From the UHGV virus genome UHGV-0209291: a DNA stretch of 8,042 nt; one strand, given 5' to 3'. A model generated the notes under the pieces. That model saw only the letters and a list, made by a program, of their open reading frames with translations, did not search any database and had not been told where the DNA came from. A program made the translations under genes and the position numbers. The DNA comes from a virus. Of the stretch, positions 1,539 to 8,042 are shown one piece after another; within the stretch, counting starts at the first letter, position 1, and the number at the start of each line of letters is the position of its first letter.

Positions 1539-1666
1539 AAAAAAAATACACCCCCTAACAAATTGTTAAAAGATGTACTAAACAATACTTAATTTGTAAC
1601 TAACTATTCGTTAAACTAGACTATTATGAATAGTTACTTTATTTTATTAAGTGGATAGTACATCTG
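1539..1666 (-). promoter_or_regulatory. AT-rich intergenic region upstream of the 430-aa gene; putative promoter/operator with inverted repeat TAACTATTC (1601-1609) / GAATAGTTA (1628-1636) and one AACTAACTA copy (1598-1606).
   Basis: 128-bp AT-rich gap between minus-strand genes. The inverted repeat and an AACTAACTA motif are shared with other upstream regions (2344-2352, 2817-2875). No clean -35/-10 could be assigned. Confidence 0.3.
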
Positions 1667-1888
1667 TTATGACAAAGAAGAATCCGAAAGAGCATCAGCA
1701 ACCTTATCATGAACTGATTTCAAAACCTTGATTTCAGATTCCGCAATGCTGAAACGCTCTGACGTGTTTATATCATCAAGGGAACGAATACGGCGTATCC
1801 TGGCGCAACGTTCCAATAATTCATCCAGACGGACGTTTACTACCCGGTTAAGGTATCGTAATTCACGTTCCGTAAGTTCAATTTTCAT
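1667..1888 (-). CDS. Hypothetical small soluble helical protein (73 aa), possibly a regulator.
   Basis: Intact ORF with charged/helical composition (ELTERELRYLNRVVNVRLDELLERCARIRR). Only a weak SD (GTGGTTGG). Sits between the gV-like and pIII-like genes. Confidence 0.45.
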   Translation of the reverse strand: MKIELTERELRYLNRVVNVRLDELLERCARIRRIRSLDDINTSERFSIAESEIKVLKSVHDKVADALSDSSLS

Positions 1889-2014
1889 CCAACCACTACT
1901 TTCTTATAATCTGTAACACATTTCCCATATCCGCGACACCGTAGGTGCATCCGGGACATGATGAACCGCGACCGCCAGGAACCTGGCACCAATCAGCAAT
2001 CAAGGGGAAGGAGT

Positions 2015-2048
2015 ATCCCCGGCCCCTAGATAATACCTGGGGCCGGGG
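2015..2048. repeat. GC-rich stem-loop with an 11-bp perfect stem, TCCCCGGCCCC (2015-2025) / GGGGCCGGGGA (2038-2048), and a 12-nt loop. It lies in a GC-rich structured non-coding segment (about 1900-2060) downstream of the gV-like gene.
   Basis: Direct reading of the sequence. No T-run follows on either strand, so it is not a canonical intrinsic terminator. The stem core ATCCCCGGC is shared with the 4262-4284 hairpin. Confidence 0.55.
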
Positions 2049-2061
2049 AATAGTGCATACG

Positions 2062-2322
2062 CTAGTTAGGTGAATCAACTATCTGGACAGCATCAACAAA
2101 ACCCCTGCGGTCAAAATTAAAATCCACATAGTCCTCAGGATGGATACCGGAGATATCCGGCGCATACTGACCATTCCAGACATCCACATTCTCCACCCTG
2201 ACACCACGGACCTTATCCGGCTGACGGGAAGGAACAGAATAAAAACGGGTAAAATCATAAGGCTTACCTGTCTTTTTAGAAACGCCTTCGAACCTCTCAA
2301 TACCTAAAACATGATATACCAT
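2062..2322 (-). CDS. gV-like ssDNA-binding protein (86 aa) of filamentous phage.
   Basis: Length matches M13 gVp (87 aa). Motifs GVSKKTGKPY (compare M13 GVSRQGKPY) and GQYAP (compare M13 GQPAYAP). SD GTGAGGA upstream. Recognised by eye from memory of gVp, not by search. Confidence 0.7.
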   Translation of the reverse strand: MVYHVLGIERFEGVSKKTGKPYDFTRFYSVPSRQPDKVRGVRVENVDVWNGQYAPDISGIHPEDYVDFNFDRRGFVDAVQIVDSPN

Positions 2323-2406
2323 AACTAATCCTCACTTTCTTTAAACTAACTAATTGGTTATATTATAGACCAGGGCAGGGCCACGGAGGGATACCCTGGG
2401 GGCAAC

Positions 2407-2586
2407 CTAAACAGGCGGAATATCGTCTGAATCCTCATTTATGTAAGACAAGATGGCTTCAAGACGGGAAAAATGATACTGTAATACATCAACACGGCAC
2501 TGGTCATGCAACGCCATGGCACGACAGATTGCCACGCTGGTTTCATTTTGTTCCTGCTCTAAGAGAGCCTTGGAAAGTCTACGCAT
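2407..2586 (-). CDS. Hypothetical 59-aa protein (MRRLSKALLEQEQNETSVAICRAMALHDQC...), below the ORF-track cutoff.
   Basis: ATG at 2586 is preceded by AGGAGGGG at 7-nt spacing. It overlaps the 3' end of the 79-aa ORF in another frame by 28 nt. Confidence 0.4.
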   Translation of the reverse strand: MRRLSKALLEQEQNETSVAICRAMALHDQCRVDVLQYHFSRLEAILSYINEDSDDIPPV

Positions 2587-2798
2587 TCGGGACCCCTCCT
2601 GTTAGTTTTATAAGCGTGAGCAACAACACCACGCAAAGCATCGCGCTCCTCAGAAGTAATTGCATCAATGGTACATGCAAAACTCAGTTGTGAACAAATC
2701 CAAGTATAATCAAACATCAAATCAATAACATCATCACCACGAAGATAAACTTCCACAGCATCATTGATTGTCTTACGGATACGCTTTTCATCCATCAT
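2559..2798 (-). CDS. Hypothetical 79-aa protein; first gene transcribed divergently from the XRE cassette.
   Basis: Tandem ATG ATG with TAAGGAGGAT SD at 8-nt spacing. Acidic/helical N-terminus. No recognisable domain. Confidence 0.55.
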   Translation of the reverse strand: MMDEKRIRKTINDAVEVYLRGDDVIDLMFDYTWICSQLSFACTIDAITSEERDALRGVVAHAYKTNRRGPECVDFPRLS

Positions 2799-2816
2799 AT
2801 TAAATCCTCCTTATGC

Positions 2817-2875
2817 ACTAACTAAATCATTCTTGTGAACTAACTAAATTTGTGATAAAATAGATACTAACTAAG
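2817..2875. repeat. Three direct copies of ACTAACTAA(A/G) at 2817, 2839 and 2866 (spacing 22 and 27 bp), each partly flanked by TTGTGA, in the divergent intergenic region. Candidate operator array.
   Basis: Read directly. The region sits between the minus-strand 79-aa gene and the plus-strand XRE regulator gene, like a lambda OR-type switch region. Related AACTAACTA copies occur at 1598-1606 and 2344-2352 upstream of other minus-strand genes. Confidence 0.5.
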
Positions 2876-2882
2876 CGCTTAA

Positions 2883-2912
2883 TTGTTACTTATCTTATAC
2901 TAAGATTATACT
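2883..2912 (+). promoter_or_regulatory. Putative sigma70-type promoter for the XRE cassette: TTGTTA (2883-2888), 18 nt spacer, TATACT (2907-2912).
   Basis: Hexamers read from the sequence, with a 50-nt leader to ATG 2962. The duplicated CAATATTTTGGAG at 2914-2926 and 2943-2955 lies in the leader. Prediction only. Confidence 0.35.
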
Positions 2913-2961
2913 ACAATATTTTGGAGCAGTCAATAGTTAAATCAATATTTTGGAGTAGATT

Positions 2962-3303
2962 ATGGAAAATTATGTATCTAAACTTTTTAGAATAATGGAA
3001 GAAAAAGGAATAACAGCTTATCAAATAAGCAAAGGAACAGGAATAGGTCAAACAACATTATCAAGTTGGAAAACCGGAACCAAACCAGCAATGGATAAAT
3101 TTGTGTTAGTACTACAATATATTGGCATATCATCAGATGAATTATTTGGCCTAAGAGAACCAGAATACACCCCCAAAGAAAAAGAAATCATATCCAAATA
3201 CAGGAAATATGATGTACATCAAAAAGAATTATTAGAAGCTTATATGGACTTACTCGGAGGAGAAAAGCATCATGACACGGAAGATGCAAGATTATACGGT
3301 TAA
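2962..3303 (+). CDS. XRE-family (Cro/C1-type) helix-turn-helix transcriptional regulator, 113 aa; candidate phage repressor/immunity regulator.
   Basis: Classic HTH_XRE signature ITAYQISKGTGIGQTTLSSWKTGTKP. GGAG SD 7 nt upstream. AT-rich codon usage unlike the backbone. Confidence 0.85.
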   Translation: MENYVSKLFRIMEEKGITAYQISKGTGIGQTTLSSWKTGTKPAMDKFVLVLQYIGISSDELFGLREPEYTPKEKEIISKYRKYDVHQKELLEAYMDLLGGEKHHDTEDARLYG

Positions 3304-3354
3304 ACGACTACATCAATACTAAAAATAAATAGTCAACCCAAACGAGGAAAATGT

Positions 3355-3981
3355 ATGTATCAGACCTATATAACACTAATACTAATTATAATTCTACTTT
3401 ACATTATCATTAAACTAATCAAAGAAAAAAATAAAGACAATGACACAAACATAAGAAGAATTGAAGAACTAAAAGAAAAAGAACTAACAAAAGAAGATAA
3501 CAACATCAATAAAAATCAATATAAAAAGAAATATTTTCTAACAAACACAGAAAAACAATTTTTATCAATATTATACGAACTAAAAAAATATAATTTAATT
3601 ATTATACCCCAAATAAATTTAGCTACAATTATACAAAAAACAGGAGAATTTCGGTATCAAAATGAATTATATCGAAATATTGATTTCGGAATATTCGATA
3701 AAAATTATAATATTCTACTTTTAATTGAATTAAATGATATATCACATCAACAATACAAACGGCGAGAAAGAGACATGAAAGTAAAAGAAATCGTCAAACA
3801 AGCCGACATAAAACTTATCAATTTTTATACAGACAAACCTAATAAACCAGAATACGTAATAAAAAGAATCATGAATGAACTTGCGATATCTATACCGAAT
3901 TACGAAATAAATCAAATTGAACAAGATAAAAAAGACGAACAACCATCCATAACTCACCAGAATGAACAAGAATCGATTTAA
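3355..3981 (+). CDS. Membrane-anchored protein (208 aa) with a DUF2726 / Vsr-DUF559-like (PD-(D/E)xK restriction-endonuclease-like fold) domain.
   Basis: N-terminal TM (ITLILIIILLYIIIKLI). Domain signature NIDFGIFDKNYNILLLIELNDISHQQYKRRERDMKVKEIVKQADIKLINF matches the hhDFhhhD...hhhhE(L/V)D(D/G)xSH...R..RD...L...GI.hhR(F) pattern of the DUF2726/DUF559 families. GAGGA SD at 6-nt spacing. About 25% GC. Confidence 0.7.
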   Translation: MYQTYITLILIIILLYIIIKLIKEKNKDNDTNIRRIEELKEKELTKEDNNINKNQYKKKYFLTNTEKQFLSILYELKKYNLIIIPQINLATIIQKTGEFRYQNELYRNIDFGIFDKNYNILLLIELNDISHQQYKRRERDMKVKEIVKQADIKLINFYTDKPNKPEYVIKRIMNELAISIPNYEINQIEQDKKDEQPSITHQNEQESI

Positions 3982-4008
3982 GGGAATTTTAAGGAGGATA
4001 TAACCTAA

Positions 4009-4254
4009 ATGAATGAAAATGAAATGCTAGAAGCCATCAGAGGAATGCTACAAGAAGAACTTAAACCAATCCATGATAGCATAGAAACTCTAAAAGTACA
4101 AAACAAGGCTATAAAAAACAAATTAGAAGAAATAGACATAAGACTAACCAACCTAGAATACCAGACAAAGAAGGGAACCAAAGAAACCAGACAAGACATA
4201 GAAACATTAGTAGAAGTCCTAGAAGCAAAAGGCATATTACCAAAAGCACTATAA
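4009..4254 (+). CDS. Small coiled-coil protein (81 aa), function unknown.
   Basis: Perfect SD AAGGAGGA 8 nt upstream. Heptad-like, charged sequence (LEAIRGMLQEELKPIHDSIETLKVQNKAIKNKLEEIDIRLTNLEYQ). Immediately followed by a terminator hairpin. Confidence 0.75.
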   Translation: MNENEMLEAIRGMLQEELKPIHDSIETLKVQNKAIKNKLEEIDIRLTNLEYQTKKGTKETRQDIETLVEVLEAKGILPKAL

Positions 4255-4261
4255 CAGCAAA

Positions 4262-4290
4262 ATCCCCGGCTCTATGCCGGGGATATCTTT
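4262..4290. terminator. Bidirectional rho-independent terminator: 9-bp GC-rich stem ATCCCCGGC / GCCGGGGAT with 5-nt loop TCTAT. Followed by ATCTTTATCT on the plus strand and TTTTGCTGTT on the minus strand.
   Basis: Read directly. It ends the plus-strand cassette (stop at 4254) and likely also the minus-strand rep transcript. Confidence 0.6.
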
Positions 4291-4296
4291 ATCTAT

Positions 4297-4359
4297 GTAA
4301 CACATTTTCACCTGCAGGTGATTTCTGGCCTGGCCGGAGCCGGCATGACCATGTGTTAC
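4297..4359. repeat. Compound inverted repeat: outer 9-bp stem GTAACACAT (4297-4305) / ATGTGTTAC (4351-4359) enclosing the perfect 12-bp palindrome CACCTGCAGGTG (4309-4320) and GGCCGG-AG-CCGGC (4332-4344). Candidate packaging signal or single-strand origin of the intergenic region.
   Basis: Read directly. It sits immediately downstream of the rep operon, where inovirus intergenic regions carry packaging/origin hairpins. Confidence 0.45.
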
Positions 4360-4538
4360 TAATCATCATCAATTACCCCACGCTTGACGGCATCAGCCAG
4401 GCCAATTGATACTAACCGGGTAGCCAGTTCCGCAGGAGTGGCATAACATTCACAGTATTCCATGTAACGGCAGAGTTGGTTATACTGCTTCTTTGTAAGG
4501 TATGTACTAACTTTGATTTTTCCAATCGGCTTATTCAT
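4359..4538 (-). CDS. Hypothetical 59-aa Cys-rich protein (MNKPIGKIKVSTYLTKKQYNQLCRYMEYCECYATPAELATRLVSIGLADAVKRGVIDDD), below the ORF-track cutoff.
   Basis: ATG at 4538 overlaps the rep stop (ATGAATAA). AAGGGAAA lies upstream. A C-x5-C-x1-C pattern hints at metal binding. The stop overlaps the right arm of the compound inverted repeat. Weak support. Confidence 0.35.
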   Translation of the reverse strand: MNKPIGKIKVSTYLTKKQYNQLCRYMEYCECYATPAELATRLVSIGLADAVKRGVIDDD

Positions 4539-5547
4539 AAAAGTTTCCCTTCTGATATCTTAATAACTGATTCCGTAACTTGTTAAATATGGAACCCTCA
4601 ACTTCAAAGGGACGTTCCAGGAGCAGCGCCTTGTATCTACGTTTCGTAGGAGCCGACATCTGCCGGAGATAATAGTCCATCTTGTCAACAGGTTGTTCCG
4701 CAAGCAACTGCACAATAACCTTTGTCTCTGCAAGGTCAATCACTTTACGAGTATAGACATTGGGCCAACATCTACAGCAATCACTGTAATCCAGGCTGTC
4801 CAACGTGACCTCAATCCGAGTAAGTGGATAATCAAGTTCTGCCTCAATCTGTTTATTATATACCTTGACACGGCCTGGACTGGACATAGAACCTAAGTAT
4901 TCAGTAAAATCCTGGGCTGATTTATAAAACTGGCTGTATTTCCGGTTATCCTTGATAAGCTGCACACAATCACGACCGTACGGCACATCAACCGCCAAAT
5001 CCCATCTCTTGATTTTTATAGATTCCACACTTACAAAAAGCTGGTCCAATACTTCTCCCAGAATGTCGCCTATCTGGTCCCGTAAATCACGGAAGGAGAT
5101 TTCCTCCTGGGTAAAAGGGGATATTGTGGTACGAAGAAAGCCATCACCATAAGCAACTTCACCCAGCAGCTTATTAGGGTTGAAATCCAGGAAACCCCGT
5201 AAGACAGTTTCTTTCTTTACACCATTCATACAACAGCCAATACTGAATGACATCCCTTTCATCCCAAACACATATAAATACCGATAGTCAAAATCCTTGT
5301 AAGATGTATAGGACGTGGAGCCAGGCAGGTGGGAGAGGAGAGAAAGAAAGGATTCCACTGTATCAATATTGGGAAACTCGAAGGAGTAACGGAGGGAATC
5401 ACAGGAGTAGAAAACACCATCCTCAATGAGTGGATTGAAGTAGTAAAGCATGGGCAGGACCTCCAAAAAGATTGTTAAGTAACTATACAAAGTGAAAGAA
5501 TTTTTCAGGACTTCGGACCTAATTAGACGGAGGTCCGAAGTCATCAT
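4531..5547 (-). CDS. Rolling-circle replication initiator, Rep_trans (pT181 RepC/RepD-like) family, 338 aa.
   Basis: Motifs RWDLAVDV and VKVYNKQIE (candidate catalytic Tyr) resemble Rep_trans conserved blocks as I recall them. GAGGA SD 9 nt upstream of the ATG ATG start. Its position next to the Zot-like gene and structured intergenic region fits an inovirus gII equivalent. Confidence 0.7.
   Translation of the reverse strand: MMTSDLRLIRSEVLKNSFTLYSYLTIFLEVLPMLYYFNPLIEDGVFYSCDSLRYSFEFPNIDTVESFLSLLSHLPGSTSYTSYKDFDYRYLYVFGMKGMSFSIGCCMNGVKKETVLRGFLDFNPNKLLGEVAYGDGFLRTTISPFTQEEISFRDLRDQIGDILGEVLDQLFVSVESIKIKRWDLAVDVPYGRDCVQLIKDNRKYSQFYKSAQDFTEYLGSMSSPGRVKVYNKQIEAELDYPLTRIEVTLDSLDYSDCCRCWPNVYTRKVIDLAETKVIVQLLAEQPVDKMDYYLRQMSAPTKRRYKALLLERPFEVEGSIFNKLRNQLLRYQKGNFYE
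5508..5542. promoter_or_regulatory. Perfect 12-bp hairpin GACTTCGGACCT / AGGTCCGAAGTC with 10-nt loop (plus strand AATTAGACGG, gene-sense strand CCGTCTAATT) at the Zot-stop/Rep-start junction. Candidate double-strand origin or translational-coupling element.
   Basis: Read directly. The hairpin covers Rep codons 3-13, and the Zot stop codon (5519-5521) lies in the stem. The loop on the gene-sense (viral) strand contains TCTAAT, reminiscent of the pT181-family nick site ...ACTCT/AATAG..., which lies inside the 5' end of repC. Confidence 0.4.
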
Positions 5548-6283
5548 CCGTTTTATCCTCTATCGCTTCAACTACGGGCCCGCCACAGGCGGGGGCCCTT
5601 CGTTTCCGCTTGATGAATGGTGTGTATGTAAATTGACCTTCTGGAAGATAGGGAGGGTCAAACGAATTAAAGTATTTTATATACTTTGGCAGATAAGTAA
5701 TACGGATGGAGCCGGCCCAGAACAGAAGCAGACTCTCAAAATGTATATCATCCACAAGTTTAGATTCACCAGCCTGGTTAGAATCTGCATGGGTAATCGT
5801 GGGAGACTTGGCAATACCCCTGGCAACTGAAAATGCATTAAAGACATTAGTCGCTAAATACATACGGTCCGTAAGGTCCCTAAGTTTCTTATCAACATCA
5901 AAACTCTGGGAAAATAGATAAACCGTATGACGGTATTTCCGTTGGAAACGGAAATAGTCAAAGGTCTTTTTCTGGAAATTCTTAAAATCACGGTTATCCC
6001 AATACCTGGAAGCCTCGTCAACCATAATGATTGCGTTTTCAGGAAAACCGACAGAACCCAACATTTCAGGCTCAAAGTAATATGTACCAGGAATGTCAGG
6101 AGCATTGCAGAACACAGGCCGTTTCCGCTTGTTATACTTCAAAGACAGTTTGACCATTAACGTGGTTTTACCAGAGCCCTTTTTACCTATGACCATGATT
6201 AATTTATAGGGATTGCGATAGCGGATTAAATGGTACCCAATGAAAAGAATAAGAAACAGGATAATCAAAACGAAAAACACCAT
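5519..6283 (-). CDS. Zot / filamentous-phage pI-like P-loop NTPase (assembly ATPase), 254 aa from the preferred start; N-terminal TM anchor.
   Basis: Walker A VIGKKGSGKTT. Walker B plus downstream IIMVDEASRYWDNR (compare V. cholerae Zot FLFIDECGRIWPPR). A YFRFQRKYRHTVYLFSQ block. AGGAGGA SD 8 nt upstream of ATG 6283. The ORF-track start 6331 lacks an SD. N-terminal TM VFFVLIILFLILFIGYHLI. Confidence 0.85.
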   Translation of the reverse strand: MVFFVLIILFLILFIGYHLIRYRNPYKLIMVIGKKGSGKTTLMVKLSLKYNKRKRPVFCNAPDIPGTYYFEPEMLGSVGFPENAIIMVDEASRYWDNRDFKNFQKKTFDYFRFQRKYRHTVYLFSQSFDVDKKLRDLTDRMYLATNVFNAFSVARGIAKSPTITHADSNQAGESKLVDDIHFESLLLFWAGSIRITYLPKYIKYFNSFDPPYLPEGQFTYTPFIKRKRRAPACGGPVVEAIEDKTDDDFGPPSN

Positions 6284-6423
6284 GAAAATATCCTCCTGAC
6301 AAAGCGGAATACACAAAGGACAACCAGACATAAAGCAATAGGCACAAAAATAGGACTATCTATATCAAAGGCCAGGAGAGGGGAGAAGAAGAAATCCCAA
6401 AAGACCGGAAGAATCCCAAACAT
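6265..6423 (-). CDS. Small membrane protein (52 aa, two hydrophobic segments) between the coat-like gene and the Zot-like gene; candidate minor virion/assembly protein.
   Basis: ATG at 6423 with GGAGGT SD at 6-nt spacing. The ORF track extends to a GTG at 6483 with no SD. Overlaps the Zot start by 19 nt. Confidence 0.45.
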   Translation of the reverse strand: MFGILPVFWDFFFSPLLAFDIDSPIFVPIALCLVVLCVFRFVRRIFSWCFSF

Positions 6424-6482
6424 AATATACCTCCAAATATCAGACCGGGCGAAACCCGGCCTGACAAAGAAACGATAAGTCA

Positions 6483-6773
6483 CTAAAAACTGCTATAGAT
6501 ACGGGAAAGGACACCAATCACAGCACCGACAAAGAAAACAGCCAGTGACAGAAGGATGATGGGCTTGTCAAGCATCCAGGCCAGCAGGTTACCACCTTCC
6601 TGGAGGAACCAGGCGAACACCTCCGTGAAGATACTGAGCGTATCCGTAAGGGAAGCAGAACCTGCACCAGATTCAGACGCATAGGCCGGAAAAGCTGTCA
6701 TACCCATAAGGAACGGTACGGCAAAAAGGCCATACATGAACTTCTGGAACCTATTTCTTACTCTCTGCAACAT
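6483..6773 (-). CDS. Coat-like protein precursor (96 aa) with a signal peptide and one TM; candidate major coat protein (pVIII-like).
   Basis: GGAGGTG SD at 7 nt. Positively charged n-region plus h-region ending AYA|SE. Mature part has an acidic/amphipathic N-terminus, a TM (PIILLSLAVFFVGAVIGVL) and a short C-tail with R. Confidence 0.55.
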   Translation of the reverse strand: MLQRVRNRFQKFMYGLFAVPFLMGMTAFPAYASESGAGSASLTDTLSIFTEVFAWFLQEGGNLLAWMLDKPIILLSLAVFFVGAVIGVLSRIYSSF

Positions 6774-6784
6774 AAAAACACCTC

Positions 6785-6949
6785 CTAAAATAAATTTTTA
6801 AAAAACTTTATTAACCTGCCAAGCAGGGGCAGGAGAATAACAACAGCACCTAAATAAATACCATCACCTAAAAGGAAATCAATCAGGACCTTGGCATTGA
6901 CCAGAATCCCATCATTAAAAATAGTCGAGAAATCTTCCCACATGGTCAT
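6785..6949 (-). CDS. Small coat-like protein (54 aa, MTMWEDFSTIFNDGILVNAKVLIDFLLGDGIYLGAVVILLPLLGRLIKFFKNLF), not in the ORF track.
   Basis: The start overlaps the upstream stop (TGATG). Acidic N-terminus, single TM, basic C-terminus (R, K, K). This is the Pf3-type major-coat architecture without a leader. Confidence 0.5.
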   Translation of the reverse strand: MTMWEDFSTIFNDGILVNAKVLIDFLLGDGIYLGAVVILLPLLGRLIKFFKNLF

Positions 6950-7095
6950 CAACCCCAACGCAAAATGATAAGTTTAAGCAGCTCACCGAAAAAGGAGAGG
7001 AGCCAGAGGAACAGGACAGCAGTAATGGCAATCAGAACGGGCTCAAACTGCACCGGGACCGTAATGCCTAATAACGTTTGTAATTGTTCAAACAT
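6949..7095 (-). CDS. Small coat-like protein (48 aa, MFEQLQTLLGITVPVQFEPVLIAITAVLFLWLLSFFGELLKLIILRWG), not in the ORF track.
   Basis: AGGGGGTGT lies 9 nt upstream of the ATG, the same element and spacing as upstream of the 430-aa gene. Overlaps the end of the 277-aa gene by 28 nt. Acidic N-terminus, TM, basic C-terminus. Confidence 0.45.
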   Translation of the reverse strand: MFEQLQTLLGITVPVQFEPVLIAITAVLFLWLLSFFGELLKLIILRWG

Positions 7096-7901
7096 ATGAA
7101 TAAAACACCCCCTGTCACAACAAACAACATGATATAATCCATGGTCTGGGATACGTAAAACGGATTATGGTATTTATTTACCGTAATCACACCATAGGAT
7201 GTGGAATAAGTAAGACGGCTGGAACTCCAATAATAAGTACGCATATAATTAGGACTGCCGTATTCATTCACCGTGGAAAAGTTATTGCCAAGACAGGGAG
7301 AGAGATACATCAGCTTACCCTCTGTCACCAAAGGATTAAATCCAGCATCCACGATACGGCCTGTAATATTACTGGTAGACATGTTCCAAAGACGGTCATT
7401 ACCATCTATATAAAGATTATCCACGTATTCCGGCGGAATCAGTAAAATATAATCATGGTTGTTAAAAGTAATATCAAAACGCAACACATTAACGTAAGTA
7501 TCCTCAGAGCCCTGCGCAAAGGAATCGGCATCCAGAGTGTAAGAAGCTGTATCAACCTCCTCACCGTCAGGAGAAATTTCCTCATCCTCCAAGGCATCAC
7601 TGTCAGGCCTGGTAGCATCTGAAGGAGTAGCAACAGGGCCACCCATAGAATCGCTAATAGATACAACTTCGGCAAGTATACGTTTAAGAACCTCATCATC
7701 GTTCATGTCCTCCATGGATTCATAATAAAAATCGGGCCGGTCATCAAAGGCTGAAGAAATATCATCATCATCCACAATTTCATCATCTTCCAAAACATCA
7801 TCATCTTCCAACACCTTTCCTACCTCAGAAGGAGACGCAACCGGAACAGCATAAGAAGGAAAGGAGAACAGAAGCATGAATACCATTATCAAAAGAACCA
7901 T
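7068..7901 (-). CDS. Secreted protein (277 aa from ATG 7901) with a poly-acidic segment and C-terminal TM anchor; second pIII-like / host-interaction candidate.
   Basis: GGAGAA SD 5 nt upstream of ATG 7901. The ORF-track TTG start at 7913 is less likely. Signal peptide ...FSFPSYA|VP. A D/E-rich run (VLEDDDVLEDDEIVDDDD). Beta-rich Y/S/T/N C-half and terminal anchor IMLFVVTGGVLFICL-NNYKRY. Confidence 0.7.
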   Translation of the reverse strand: MVLLIMVFMLLFSFPSYAVPVASPSEVGKVLEDDDVLEDDEIVDDDDISSAFDDRPDFYYESMEDMNDDEVLKRILAEVVSISDSMGGPVATPSDATRPDSDALEDEEISPDGEEVDTASYTLDADSFAQGSEDTYVNVLRFDITFNNHDYILLIPPEYVDNLYIDGNDRLWNMSTSNITGRIVDAGFNPLVTEGKLMYLSPCLGNNFSTVNEYGSPNYMRTYYWSSSRLTYSTSYGVITVNKYHNPFYVSQTMDYIMLFVVTGGVLFICLNNYKRY

Positions 7902-7902
7902 A

Positions 7903-8042
7903 TCATTCTCCAAACTTTACAATCACAGTACGGGCAACAATCGTAACAATAAGGATGGCAACAAGGACATTCTCCAAGGTAAAACCGCCAAGTTCCGTAT
8001 ATTGAAGAAGCCCAATCATGCCACCGAATACATCAATAACAA
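7903..8042 (-). CDS. 3' end of an ORF entering from the right edge (...VIDVFGGMIGLLQYTELGGFTLENVLVAILIVTIVARTVIVKFGE*); C-terminal TM segment, partial.
   Basis: Open frame to the window edge. Its stop TGA (7903-7905) lies 1 nt from the next ATG (7901), which suggests operon coupling. No start is visible. Confidence 0.35.
   Translation of the reverse strand, partial: VIDVFGGMIGLLQYTELGGFTLENVLVAILIVTIVARTVIVKFGE

What the first reader, a model, noticed from the sequence alone, without database searches (positions are those of the whole stretch)
3355..3981. Membrane-anchored DUF2726/Vsr-like endonuclease-fold protein as phage cargo
An N-terminal TM helix is followed by a domain with the diagnostic hhDFhhhD...IELxDxSH...R..RD...L...I.L..F pattern of the DUF2726/DUF559 (Vsr-like PD-(D/E)xK) families. 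Membrane tethering of a nuclease-fold domain is unusual. It suggests an abortive-infection or exclusion effector acting on incoming DNA at the envelope, or a toxin held in check by the adjacent XRE regulator or coiled-coil protein.
Basis: partly seen in the sequence, partly recalled or inferred. Interest (0 to 1): 0.7.

Follow-up and report, generated by a model that had tools for sequence, protein, structure and literature searches.

The report
Membrane-anchored Vsr-like nuclease in inovirus
A filamentous prophage of gut Clostridia carries, in the same operon as its repressor, a small membrane-anchored nuclease of the uncharacterised DUF2726 family; the protein is typical of that family, and it probably cuts foreign DNA as it enters the cell, though no one has tested this.

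Summary
ORF 3355-3981 (+) encodes 208 aa: a strongly hydrophobic N-terminal helix, a charged linker and a DUF2726 domain (Pfam E 1.8e-11, above the curated cut-off). [quoted passage not shown] The residues I assign to the Vsr/EDxHD catalytic positions are invariant or nearly so in 69 homologues.

Membrane anchoring is the norm in this subfamily, with 88 of 116 relatives carrying one or two TM-like segments. Flanking charges place the nuclease domain in the cytoplasm. The toxin-antitoxin idea fails: the coiled-coil gene also occurs in a sibling phage without DUF2726, the regulator is swapped between phages, and chromosomal copies stand alone.

The window is a complete 8,042-nt inovirus genome. 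The gene is AT-rich cargo (24% vs 42% GC) lying between the repressor and a terminator, inside a horizontally exchanged immunity cassette. The only similar genes in 50,697 phage records are in three Vibrio inoviruses, one next to PD-T7-4.

Best explanation (untested): a lysogen-expressed nuclease that cuts incoming DNA at the membrane. That is analogous to SNIPE (Nature 2026) but uses an unrelated nuclease fold and has no DUF4041. Public annotation already calls it DUF2726.

The parts
3355..3981 (+). Gene for the 208-aa membrane-anchored DUF2726 protein (stop codon included)
   Evidence: ORF list and sequence. Pfam PF10881 E 1.8e-11. The identical protein is indexed in 307 blocks of the public assembly collection, on contigs up to >1 Mb.
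3344..3348 (+). GAGGA ribosome-binding site, 6 nt upstream of the ATG
   Evidence: Read directly from the sequence.
3364..3417 (+). Codons 4-21: N-terminal transmembrane helix (predicted N-out, C-in)
   Evidence: 17-residue Kyte-Doolittle mean 3.15. Helix with pLDDT 94-97. In 74 of 77 single-TM homologues the C-terminal flank has more K+R than the N-terminal flank, mean 3.7 vs 0.34.
3418..3528 (+). Codons 22-58: charged Lys/Glu-rich linker, helical to about residue 42 and then low-confidence
   Evidence: Model secondary structure and pLDDT 56-76. 11 K+R and 9 D+E in 37 residues.
3529..3870 (+). Codons 59-172: DUF2726 / Vsr-like nuclease domain. Invariant residues E66, Q86, E104, D110, E125, D128, H131, R139, D140, Y167
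3880..3978 (+). Codons 176-208: acidic, poorly conserved C-terminal tail (pI 4.25)
   Evidence: pLDDT 65-71. Most homologues of 155-180 aa lack it.
2962..3303 (+). XRE/HTH_3 regulator (113 aa), the probable phage repressor and first gene of the + strand operon
   Evidence: HTH_3 E 1.1e-7. PHROG transcriptional repressor families. Weak RstR-family match, E 3.4e-4, below cut-off.
4009..4254 (+). 81-aa coiled-coil protein, last gene of the operon. It is a phage backbone gene, not a dedicated partner of DUF2726
   Evidence: BLASTP E 4e-12 to the 76-aa protein of a sibling inovirus that lacks DUF2726. No family match.
4262..4284 (.). G+C-rich 9-bp-stem hairpin that closes the + strand operon (terminator-like on both strands)
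2799..2961 (.). Divergent regulatory region: promoter-like sites on both strands, two of the three 16-nt repeat copies (the third lies at 3110-3125, inside the XRE gene), a 22-nt tandem repeat and a palindrome (candidate operators)
   Evidence: Promoter-like sites on the - strand at 2933-2905 (11/12) and on the + strand at 2833-2861 and 2883-2912. Repeats D1, D2 and palindrome I1.
2790..4309 (.). The whole immunity cassette (regulatory region + XRE + DUF2726 + coiled coil + hairpin), exchanged as a block between diverged inovirus backbones
   Evidence: 96.9% identity to L007 across this stretch, against 70-80% for the flanking backbone. No nucleotide match for 2911-4197 in the sibling phage of L001.

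Best explanation
The gene encodes a single-pass membrane protein. A very short N-terminus faces outward, one TM helix spans the membrane, and a charged linker of about 35 residues leads to a cytoplasmic Vsr-like (EDxHD-type) Mg-dependent endonuclease domain of the DUF2726 family. It has no DNA-recognition domain.

It is accessory cargo of a temperate filamentous phage (inovirus) of gut Clostridia. It lies between the repressor gene and a terminator, on the strand opposite all replication and morphogenesis genes. It is therefore most likely made in the lysogen together with the repressor.

The proposed mechanism is that tethering to the inner face of the membrane keeps the nuclease off the nucleoid and next to DNA that is crossing the membrane. 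It would then cut incoming phage DNA, either a superinfecting inovirus or a tailed phage, or other incoming DNA. That would protect both the host and the resident prophage.

What is shown: domain identity, fold, conservation of the residues assigned to the catalytic positions, the hydrophobic anchor, cargo status and operon layout. What is inferred: topology (positive-inside rule), expression in the lysogen, nuclease activity, the target and the protective phenotype.

For: Active site: E66, D110, E125, H131 and D140 are invariant and N127 is >=90% conserved in 69 sequences. By spacing they correspond to Vsr E25/D51/H64/H69/D97 and I-Bth0305I E170/D196/N208/H213/D222 (PMC3239194); this mapping is my inference.

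Topology: 74 of 77 single-TM homologues have the K/R excess on the C-terminal flank. The 11 two-TM variants are positive at both ends. Both patterns place the domain in the cytoplasm.

Operon: 51- and 27-nt intergenic gaps. The only + strand promoter-like sites before the hairpin lie upstream of the XRE gene, and the hairpin is at 4262-4284.

Cargo: GC 0.239 vs 0.421; absent from a sibling inovirus with the same backbone; the cassette is 96.9% identical between backbones that are 70-80% identical.

Recurrence in inoviruses: the only tblastn hits in 50,697 phage records are three Vibrio Tubulavirales. Both proteins examined have an N-terminal TM segment followed by a K-rich flank. One sits beside a gene annotated PD-T7-4, in records from V. 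cyclitrophicus strains of the collection in which such phages were shown to carry an accessory-gene hotspot enriched for defence (PMC11630473).

Defence-island context: a 58%-identical homologue lies among HEPN RiboL-PSP, GmrSD, an EcoRI-type methylase and GmrSD-HNH.

Single-gene system: no conserved neighbour.

Precedent: SNIPE has an N-out TM helix and a cytoplasmic nuclease. It cleaves phage DNA during injection, and removing the TM helix makes it toxic (PMC13190303).
Against: No experiment exists for any DUF2726 protein; the literature lists the function as unknown (PMC3424549). There is no PADLOC match.

The protein has no counterpart of SNIPE's DUF4041, which SNIPE needs for defence and for binding DNA and tape measure proteins. 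How it would spare the host chromosome or recognise an invader is therefore unexplained.

Many relatives sit in ordinary chromosomal contexts. One clade has an amphipathic N-terminal helix instead of a TM helix and conserved synteny (mnmA - unknown - DUF2726 ... xerC-like - rarA). That pattern looks more housekeeping than defensive.

Among 106 neighbours, only sporadic defence genes were found.

The resident inovirus's own ssDNA must reach the membrane for assembly and would need to escape the enzyme.

Topology and transcription are predictions only.
Confidence: 0.45

Rival explanations
1. Abortive-infection or addiction toxin. The nuclease is harmless while membrane-bound or while neutralised by the XRE or the coiled-coil protein, and it kills the cell by cutting the chromosome once released.
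For: The gene order XRE then effector resembles antitoxin-toxin pairs. The DUF2726 and 81-aa genes overlap by 8 nt in L020 and L032. SNIPE lacking its TM helix is toxic through chromosome cleavage (PMC13190303). DUF2726 domains are fused to AbiJ N-terminal domains in other proteins (PMC3710099).
Against: The coiled-coil gene is present in a sibling phage without DUF2726. The regulator is swapped, XRE-113 versus an unrelated 80-aa protein, while DUF2726 stays the same. Chromosomal homologues stand alone behind long intergenic regions, and no recurrent neighbour appears among 106 scanned. The XRE protein looks like the phage repressor at a divergent promoter/operator region.
Confidence: 0.15
2. 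A cellular membrane-associated nucleic-acid processing enzyme with no immune role, for example DNA repair or processing at the membrane or septum. It could also act on RNA, as the Vsr-like RAP/FASTK domains do. On this reading the phage picked it up and it alters host physiology or has little effect.
Against: The gene has lower GC than its flanks in all 10 loci tested. Copies occur in a defence island, near transposase and recombinase genes, and in inoviruses of two phyla. It travels inside a horizontally exchanged immunity cassette.
Confidence: 0.2
3. A function in the inovirus's own life cycle at the membrane. Examples are processing replicative or ssDNA forms at the assembly site, helping excision, or degrading host DNA during production.
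For: Inovirus assembly and DNA entry both take place at the inner membrane (established knowledge of Inoviridae). Among viruses the subfamily was found only in inoviruses.
Against: Sibling phages with the same backbone lack the gene. It lies on the repressor strand rather than with the replication and morphogenesis genes. Most family members are chromosomal with no phage nearby.
Confidence: 0.1
4. A catalytically dead or decaying remnant that only binds DNA, or does nothing.
For: One metagenomic variant (P0001) has Gly at the otherwise invariant D140.
Against: Twelve positions, including all the putative metal and base ligands, are invariant across 69 sequences with as little as 36% identity to the window protein. 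The identical protein is indexed in 307 blocks of the collection.
Confidence: 0.05

Closest known systems
DUF2726 (Pfam PF10881), an uncharacterised PD-(D/E)xK-superfamily family
   Same: The whole-protein score is above Pfam's gathering cut-off. It has the same conserved motifs, and NR already names a 99%-identical protein 'DUF2726 [Inoviridae sp.]'. Steczkiewicz et al. 2012 list the function as unknown and note an association with mobile elements.
   Different: Nothing essential differs. This is the short, N-terminally anchored architecture, not one of the longer multi-domain forms such as the AbiJ-NTD3 fusion or the ~300-aa tailed-phage proteins.
SNIPE / PD-lambda-1 (Saxton et al., Nature 2026, PMC13190303)
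   Same: Both are single-gene proteins with a short external N-terminus, one TM helix and a cytoplasmic C-terminal nuclease. In both families about two thirds to three quarters of homologues have one or two TM segments, and the rest have other N-termini. Both are carried on mobile elements.
   Different: The nuclease fold is unrelated: GIY-YIG in SNIPE, Vsr-like here. This protein has no DUF4041 and no PADLOC hit, and at 208 aa it is much shorter. SNIPE's activity, topology and targets have been demonstrated experimentally; nothing has been here.
Vsr endonuclease (1cw0) and DUF559 (3hrl)
   Different: There is no Pfam hit to Vsr or DUF559 at E<=1. The protein contains no cysteine, so Vsr's zinc site is absent (sequence). 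It has no link to a Dcm methylase, and it is membrane-anchored.
EDxHD homing endonucleases (I-Bth0305I, 3r3p)
   Different: There is no NUMOD/HTH DNA-binding domain and no intron or intein context. A TM anchor takes the place of a DNA-binding N-terminus.
Accessory (defence) loci of filamentous prophages in marine Vibrio (PMC11630473) and the TM-DUF2726 genes of Vaf1 and PE001 phages
   Same: These are also small temperate inoviruses carrying a variable cargo locus. Both proteins examined (Vaf1 and one PE001 phage) have the TM + K-rich flank + DUF2726 architecture.
   Different: Identity is only 27-35% over the domain. The host phylum differs. In PE001 the gene is on the structural-gene strand and sits next to PD-T7-4.

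Membership tests
DUF2726 (PF10881) | Profile match above Pfam's gathering score | tested here: met
   44.3 bits against a cut-off of 24.7, E 1.8e-11, profile positions 2-123 of 126.
DUF2726 (PF10881) | Restriction-endonuclease-like (Vsr-type) alpha/beta core | tested here: met
DUF2726 (PF10881) | Conserved acidic and His residues of the putative active site | tested here: met
   E66, D110, E125, D128, H131 and D140 are invariant in 69 homologues.
DUF2726 (PF10881) | Nuclease activity | not testable with these tools
   No biochemical data were found for any family member.
Vsr (very short patch repair endonuclease) | Sequence-profile membership | tested here: not met
   No Vsr or DUF559 family listed at E<=1. 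No PDB sequence hit even with a profile.
Vsr (very short patch repair endonuclease) | Structural zinc site (Cys/His ligands) | tested here: not met
   The 208-aa sequence has no cysteine. I-Bth0305I also lacks this site.
EDxHD homing endonucleases | N-terminal NUMOD/HTH DNA-binding region, and residence in an intron or intein or a free-standing homing context | tested here: not met
   The N-terminus is a TM helix plus a charged linker with no DNA-binding domain hit. The gene lies in a repressor operon.
SNIPE / PD-lambda-1 | N-terminal TM helix with the nuclease in the cytoplasm | tested here: inconclusive
   The TM segment is clear. The orientation is only predicted, from flanking charges.
SNIPE / PD-lambda-1 | DUF4041 domain and GIY-YIG nuclease | tested here: not met
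   Neither appears in the Pfam scan at E<=1. No PADLOC model matches. The fold is Vsr-like.
Type II toxin-antitoxin module | A cognate partner gene conserved next to the toxin | tested here: not met
   The partner genes vary or are absent.
Inovirus accessory (moron) gene | Present in some but not all closely related phages, with atypical composition, and outside the core modules | tested here: met
   Sibling phages lack it. GC is 0.239 vs 0.421. It lies within the exchanged immunity cassette.

The most novel reading that the evidence does not exclude
Short membrane-anchored DUF2726 proteins would be a second, convergently evolved class of 'entry-point' nucleases. They would be a minimal SNIPE-like defence built on a Vsr fold, with no invader-sensing domain, so that self and non-self are told apart by membrane tethering alone. 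Filamentous phages of both Clostridia and Vibrio would spread them, as part of their immunity or accessory cassettes, to exclude competing phages. Several hundred close sequence clusters (381 at E<=1e-30; 7,327 in the wider family at E<=1e-3) would then be one uncharacterised single-gene immune system.
Probability: 0.3. Interest if true: 0.7.

Novelty: new member of a known kind. Interest (0 to 1): 0.45.

Why it matters
DUF2726 is a large nuclease-fold family (7,327 sequence clusters in the profile search) with no assigned function. The first membrane-bound nuclease that cuts phage DNA during injection (SNIPE) was described only in 2026. A second, structurally unrelated nuclease with the same anchor-linker-nuclease layout would suggest that spatial self/non-self discrimination is a general strategy that has evolved repeatedly. 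This case adds that the gene is carried by filamentous prophages in their repressor operon. It would also give small, tractable genes for testing that idea. Finally, it shows that very small gut inoviruses carry exchangeable cargo in their immunity cassettes. If the protein is not a defence, the result is simply that one more prophage gene receives a correct domain annotation.

Tried and rejected
- Sequence searches of the PDB with the protein and with a 69-sequence profile gave nothing meaningful; the only hits were Ctf4 at E~1.
- PADLOC had no model for the protein. NCBIfam gave nothing useful.
- Megablast of the whole window against 50,697 phage records found no match.
- The afdb50 fold library was unavailable.
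- The species-representative genome scan returned a single partial locus in a Clostridia MAG. The IMG/VR scan returned a single inovirus contig. Neither allowed a quantitative host or virus census.
- The plasmid search gave four weak proteobacterial hits.
- I considered whether the gene was captured by imprecise excision, because another inovirus is integrated directly downstream of a chromosomal homologue (L019). I rejected this for the window phage: its att core (1601-1635) is 1.7 kb from the gene, and the gene lies inside the immunity cassette.
- I considered a secreted nuclease with a signal peptide. The segment has no positively charged n-region; the positive charges follow it, in this protein and in 74 of 77 homologues.
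- The neighbour survey used crude ORF calling and only the two nearest ORFs on each side (ORFs called). It can show that no universal partner exists. It cannot measure enrichment in defence islands.

Full report
1. THE OBSERVATION

The ORF at 3355-3981 on the + strand is real and encodes 208 aa. A GAGGA ribosome-binding site lies at 3344-3348, 6 nt before the ATG.

Pfam DUF2726 (PF10881) matches residues 59-172 with E 1.8e-11 and 44.3 bits, against a curated cut-off of 24.7. PHROG family 14167, of unknown function, matches at 8.6e-16.

The predicted DUF559 (PF04480) hit did not appear at E<=1. The only other nuclease-type entry was REase_MTES_1575 at E 0.068, far below its cut-off.

The N-terminal segment ITLILIIILLYIIIKLI has a 17-residue Kyte-Doolittle mean of 3.15.

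A word-indexed search found 275 homologues at E<=1e-3, nearly all carrying PF10881. One is a 99%-identical NR entry already named 'MAG TPA: Protein of unknown function (DUF2726) [Inoviridae sp.]'. A profile search of 1.84 billion cluster representatives found 7,327 relatives at E<=1e-3, 2,914 at <=1e-10 and 381 at <=1e-30.

2. FOLD AND ACTIVE SITE

An AlphaFold2 model built on a 69-sequence alignment has mean pLDDT 86.7.
- Residues 2-42 form one long helix: the TM segment followed by a charged stretch.
- Residues 43-60 are low-confidence.
- Residues 64-176 form an alpha/beta core with pLDDT 92-98.

RAP domains, Bax1 and many type II restriction enzymes follow. Foldseek against viral models returns DUF2726, DUF559 and 'VSR homing endonuclease' proteins.

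Twelve positions are invariant in the alignment: E66, Q86, L89, E104, L105, D110, E125, D128, H131, R139, D140 and Y167. N127 is at least 90% conserved.

The I-Bth0305I paper equates the Vsr active-site residues E25, D51, H64, H69 and D97 with E170, D196, N208, H213 and D222. It also notes an extra conserved acid at the position of Vsr F62 (PMC3239194). From secondary-structure position and spacing I infer that these correspond here to E66, D110, N127, H131 and D140, with E125 as the extra acid. I could not superpose coordinates, so this mapping remains an inference.

The protein has no cysteine, so it lacks Vsr's zinc site. It also has no DNA-binding module of the NUMOD/HTH kind. Its active-site pattern is therefore consistent with a working Vsr-type nuclease, with nothing evident to confer sequence specificity.

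3. THE MEMBRANE ANCHOR IS THE FAMILY NORM, AND THE DOMAIN IS PREDICTED TO BE CYTOPLASMIC

I analysed 116 distinct close homologues.
- 77 have one TM-like segment before the domain.
- 11 have two.
- 28 have none. Many of these start with an amphipathic helix instead, for example MLIEIFEAILEFIIRLFKGK.

In 74 of the 77 single-TM proteins the 12 residues after the segment hold more Lys+Arg than the residues before it (mean 3.7 against 0.34). The segment usually starts within the first five residues. In most of the two-TM variants both ends are positively charged.

By the positive-inside rule both architectures put the nuclease domain in the cytoplasm. They also argue against a cleaved signal peptide. 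This is a prediction and has not been measured.

4. WHAT THE WINDOW IS, AND WHERE THE GENE SITS

The window has a Zot-type assembly ATPase (5519-6331, -) and an RstB-like ssDNA-binding protein (2062-2322, -). It also has several small membrane proteins and a weak Rep_trans-like replication protein (4531-5547, -). This is an inovirus.

The identical DUF2726 protein is indexed in 307 blocks of the public assembly collection. It occurs on contigs up to more than 1 Mb, inside prophages flanked by ordinary bacterial genes.

In locus L003 the window maps as 1601-8042 followed by 1-1635, with 35 bp (window 1601-1635) present at both ends. The window is therefore the complete 8,042-nt circular genome, and 1601-1635 is the attachment core.

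All replication and morphogenesis genes are on the - strand. The + strand carries only three genes:
- an XRE/HTH_3 regulator (2962-3303), with PHROG repressor-family matches and a weak RstR-like match;
- the DUF2726 gene;
- an 81-aa coiled-coil gene (4009-4254).

The gaps between them are 51 and 27 nt. Before the hairpin, promoter-like sites on the + strand occur only upstream of the XRE gene. A strong - strand site (11/12) faces the other way. A 9-bp G+C-rich hairpin at 4262-4284 follows the third gene. The divergent intergenic region holds repeated 16-mers, a 22-nt tandem repeat and a palindrome.

This is the layout of a phage immunity switch. I infer that DUF2726 is transcribed with the repressor in the lysogen.

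5. CARGO STATUS

The gene is 23.9% G+C against 42.1% for the rest of the genome (profile).

Loci L001 and L004 carry a second inovirus in tandem. Its backbone is about 77% identical to the window's. In place of window 2911-4197 it has an unrelated 82-aa regulator directly followed by a 76-aa gene.
- The 76-aa protein is a homologue of the window's 81-aa protein (E 4e-12, shared C-terminal LVEVLEAKGILPK).
- In phages L020 and L032, an 80-aa regulator 55% identical to that 82-aa protein precedes a DUF2726 gene and the same 81-aa gene.
- DUF2726 plus the 81-aa gene is 89% identical between the window and L020, while the backbones are 76-80% identical.
- In L007 the whole cassette 2790-4309 is 96.9% identical, while the backbone is 70-80% identical.

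DUF2726 is therefore an insertion between regulator and coiled-coil gene within an immunity cassette that moves between inovirus lineages. Neither neighbour is a dedicated partner.

6. WHERE ELSE THE PROTEIN OCCURS

Viruses. tblastn against 50,697 phage records gave three hits, all in Vibrio Tubulavirales: Vaf1 and two V. cyclitrophicus 'PE001' phages. The two proteins I examined again have an N-terminal hydrophobic segment followed by a Lys/Arg-rich flank. In one PE001 phage the gene lies between the morphogenesis genes and a gene annotated PD-T7-4, with a regulator beyond it. A study of V. cyclitrophicus and other Vibrionaceae prophages found that filamentous prophages have an accessory-gene hotspot enriched for defence genes (PMC11630473). 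IMG/VR yielded one relative, an 8.3-kb inovirus contig.

Chromosomes. The contexts are mixed.
- A 58%-identical TM-anchored copy sits among HEPN RiboL-PSP, GmrSD, an EcoRI-type methylase and GmrSD-HNH genes.
- Another lies near recombinase and IS1595 transposase genes.
- Others are among ordinary genes.
- One clade lies in conserved synteny: mnmA, an unknown 255-aa gene, DUF2726, then a xerC-like recombinase and rarA.

A survey of 106 neighbours from 27 non-redundant metagenomic loci found no recurrent partner. The commonest families were tyrosine recombinase (7), MnmA (4), Metalloenzyme (4), ZIP (4) and HTH_3 (3). Clear defence hits were sporadic: NsnA, PD-T4-2_A and a type II restriction enzyme.

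In all ten loci tested the gene has lower G+C than its flanks.

7. MECHANISM

The best-supported reading is as follows. The protein is a self-contained, lysogen-expressed nuclease held at the inner face of the membrane. There it is kept off the nucleoid and close to DNA that is being translocated into the cell. It cuts that DNA and so excludes superinfecting phages or other incoming elements.

The closest experimentally understood system is SNIPE (PD-lambda-1) (PMC13190303).
- It has a periplasmic N-terminus, one TM helix and a cytoplasmic nuclease.
- It cleaves lambda DNA during injection.
- Removing the TM helix makes it toxic by chromosome cleavage.
- 59% of its homologues have one TM segment and 7% have two.

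The resemblance is architectural only. SNIPE's nuclease is GIY-YIG, and it needs a DUF4041 domain that binds DNA and tape measure proteins. The window protein has a Vsr-like nuclease, no DUF4041 and no PADLOC match. It works like SNIPE at most; it is not a member.

The weak points of the hypothesis are these:
- there is no invader-sensing element;
- how the resident inovirus's own DNA escapes at the membrane is unexplained;
- one clade looks housekeeping-like by synteny;
- there are no experimental data for any DUF2726 protein.

I put the defence/exclusion mechanism at about 0.45. The rivals are:
- abortive-infection or addiction toxin, 0.15, weakened by the variable neighbours;
- a non-immune cellular nucleic-acid enzyme, possibly acting on RNA given the RAP-domain fold matches, 0.2;
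- a role in the phage's own life cycle, 0.1, weakened by its absence from sibling phages;
- an inactive remnant, 0.05, weakened by twelve invariant positions.

8. NOVELTY AND VERDICT

The protein is a regular member of a known but uncharacterised Pfam family, with the architecture typical of its subfamily. Public databases already annotate it as DUF2726 in an Inoviridae MAG. I therefore class it as a new member of a known kind.

What I add:
- the anchor is conserved and predicts a cytoplasmic domain;
- the residues I assign to the Vsr/EDxHD catalytic positions are invariant or nearly so;
- the gene is cargo of an exchangeable inovirus immunity cassette;
- the toxin-antitoxin idea is not supported;
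- among viruses the subfamily turned up only in filamentous phages, of two bacterial phyla;
- there is now an experimental precedent for the proposed mode of action.

Interest is moderate at 0.45. It is a good, cheap experimental lead into a large unknown family and into spatial self/non-self discrimination, but it rests on inference.

Noticed in passing
window 1601-1635; L003 8247-16323: The window is the complete circular 8,042-nt inovirus genome. In an integrated copy it maps as 1601-8042 followed by 1-1635, so this 35-bp stretch is duplicated at both prophage ends and is the probable attachment core.
   Followed up: partly
L001 ~300-8300 and 8200-16323; L004 8700-20627: Two related inoviruses are integrated in tandem (polylysogeny). 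Their backbones are about 77% identical but their immunity cassettes differ completely: XRE + DUF2726 + 81 aa in one, 82 aa + 76 aa in the other.
   Followed up: partly
window 2790-4309 versus L007 9435-10955: The whole immunity cassette is 96.9% identical between phages whose backbones are only 70-80% identical, which points to recent horizontal exchange of the cassette.
   Followed up: partly
window 4009-4254: The 81-aa coiled-coil protein has a conserved C-terminal LVEVLEAKGILPK motif. It is present in every related inovirus examined, with or without DUF2726, and matches no family. In L020 and L032 its start overlaps the DUF2726 stop by 8 nt.
   Followed up: partly
window 2801-2953 and 3110-3125: Candidate operators lie in the divergent regulatory region: a 22-nt tandem repeat (2801-2844), a 26-nt palindrome (2855-2898) and three copies of TACTACAATATTTTGG-like 16-mers, one of them inside the XRE gene.
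   Followed up: no
window 4262-4404: A G+C-rich hairpin (4262-4284) is followed by further G+C-rich inverted repeats (4297-4359 and 4326-4404) in an otherwise AT-rich stretch. These could be the terminator plus an origin or packaging signal of the phage.
   Followed up: no
L019 6616-12552: A different inovirus (Zot-like gene, Rep_OBD replication protein, HTH_3 regulator) is integrated immediately downstream of a chromosomal DUF2726 homologue. In three otherwise syntenic genomes no phage is present at that site.
   Followed up: no
P0001 (protein): One metagenomic variant of the window protein has Gly in place of the otherwise invariant Asp140 (RERGMKV instead of RERDMKV). It is either a sequencing error or an inactivated allele.
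   Followed up: no
L016-L018, L021; P0063, P0067, P0077, P0080, P0087: One clade of homologues has an amphipathic N-terminal helix instead of a TM helix. For P0080, and for the TM-anchored P0103, the gene lies in conserved synteny (mnmA, an unknown ~255-aa gene, DUF2726, later a xerC-like recombinase and rarA); the contexts of the other amphipathic proteins were not examined. For P0080 the stored gene did not translate to the protein with table 11, so that lineage may use another genetic code.
   Followed up: partly
P0064, P0077, P0058 (proteins): Variant architectures occur within the family: two tandem DUF2726 domains behind one TM helix (P0064, 295 aa), a ~150-aa C-terminal extension (P0077, 312 aa), and a long N-terminal extension with two TM helices (P0058, 274 aa).
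   Followed up: no
window 3742-3969 (-) and other short ORFs: The 75-aa antisense ORF inside the DUF2726 gene, and the many 40-80-aa ORFs listed across the window, have no support and look like composition artefacts.
   Followed up: no
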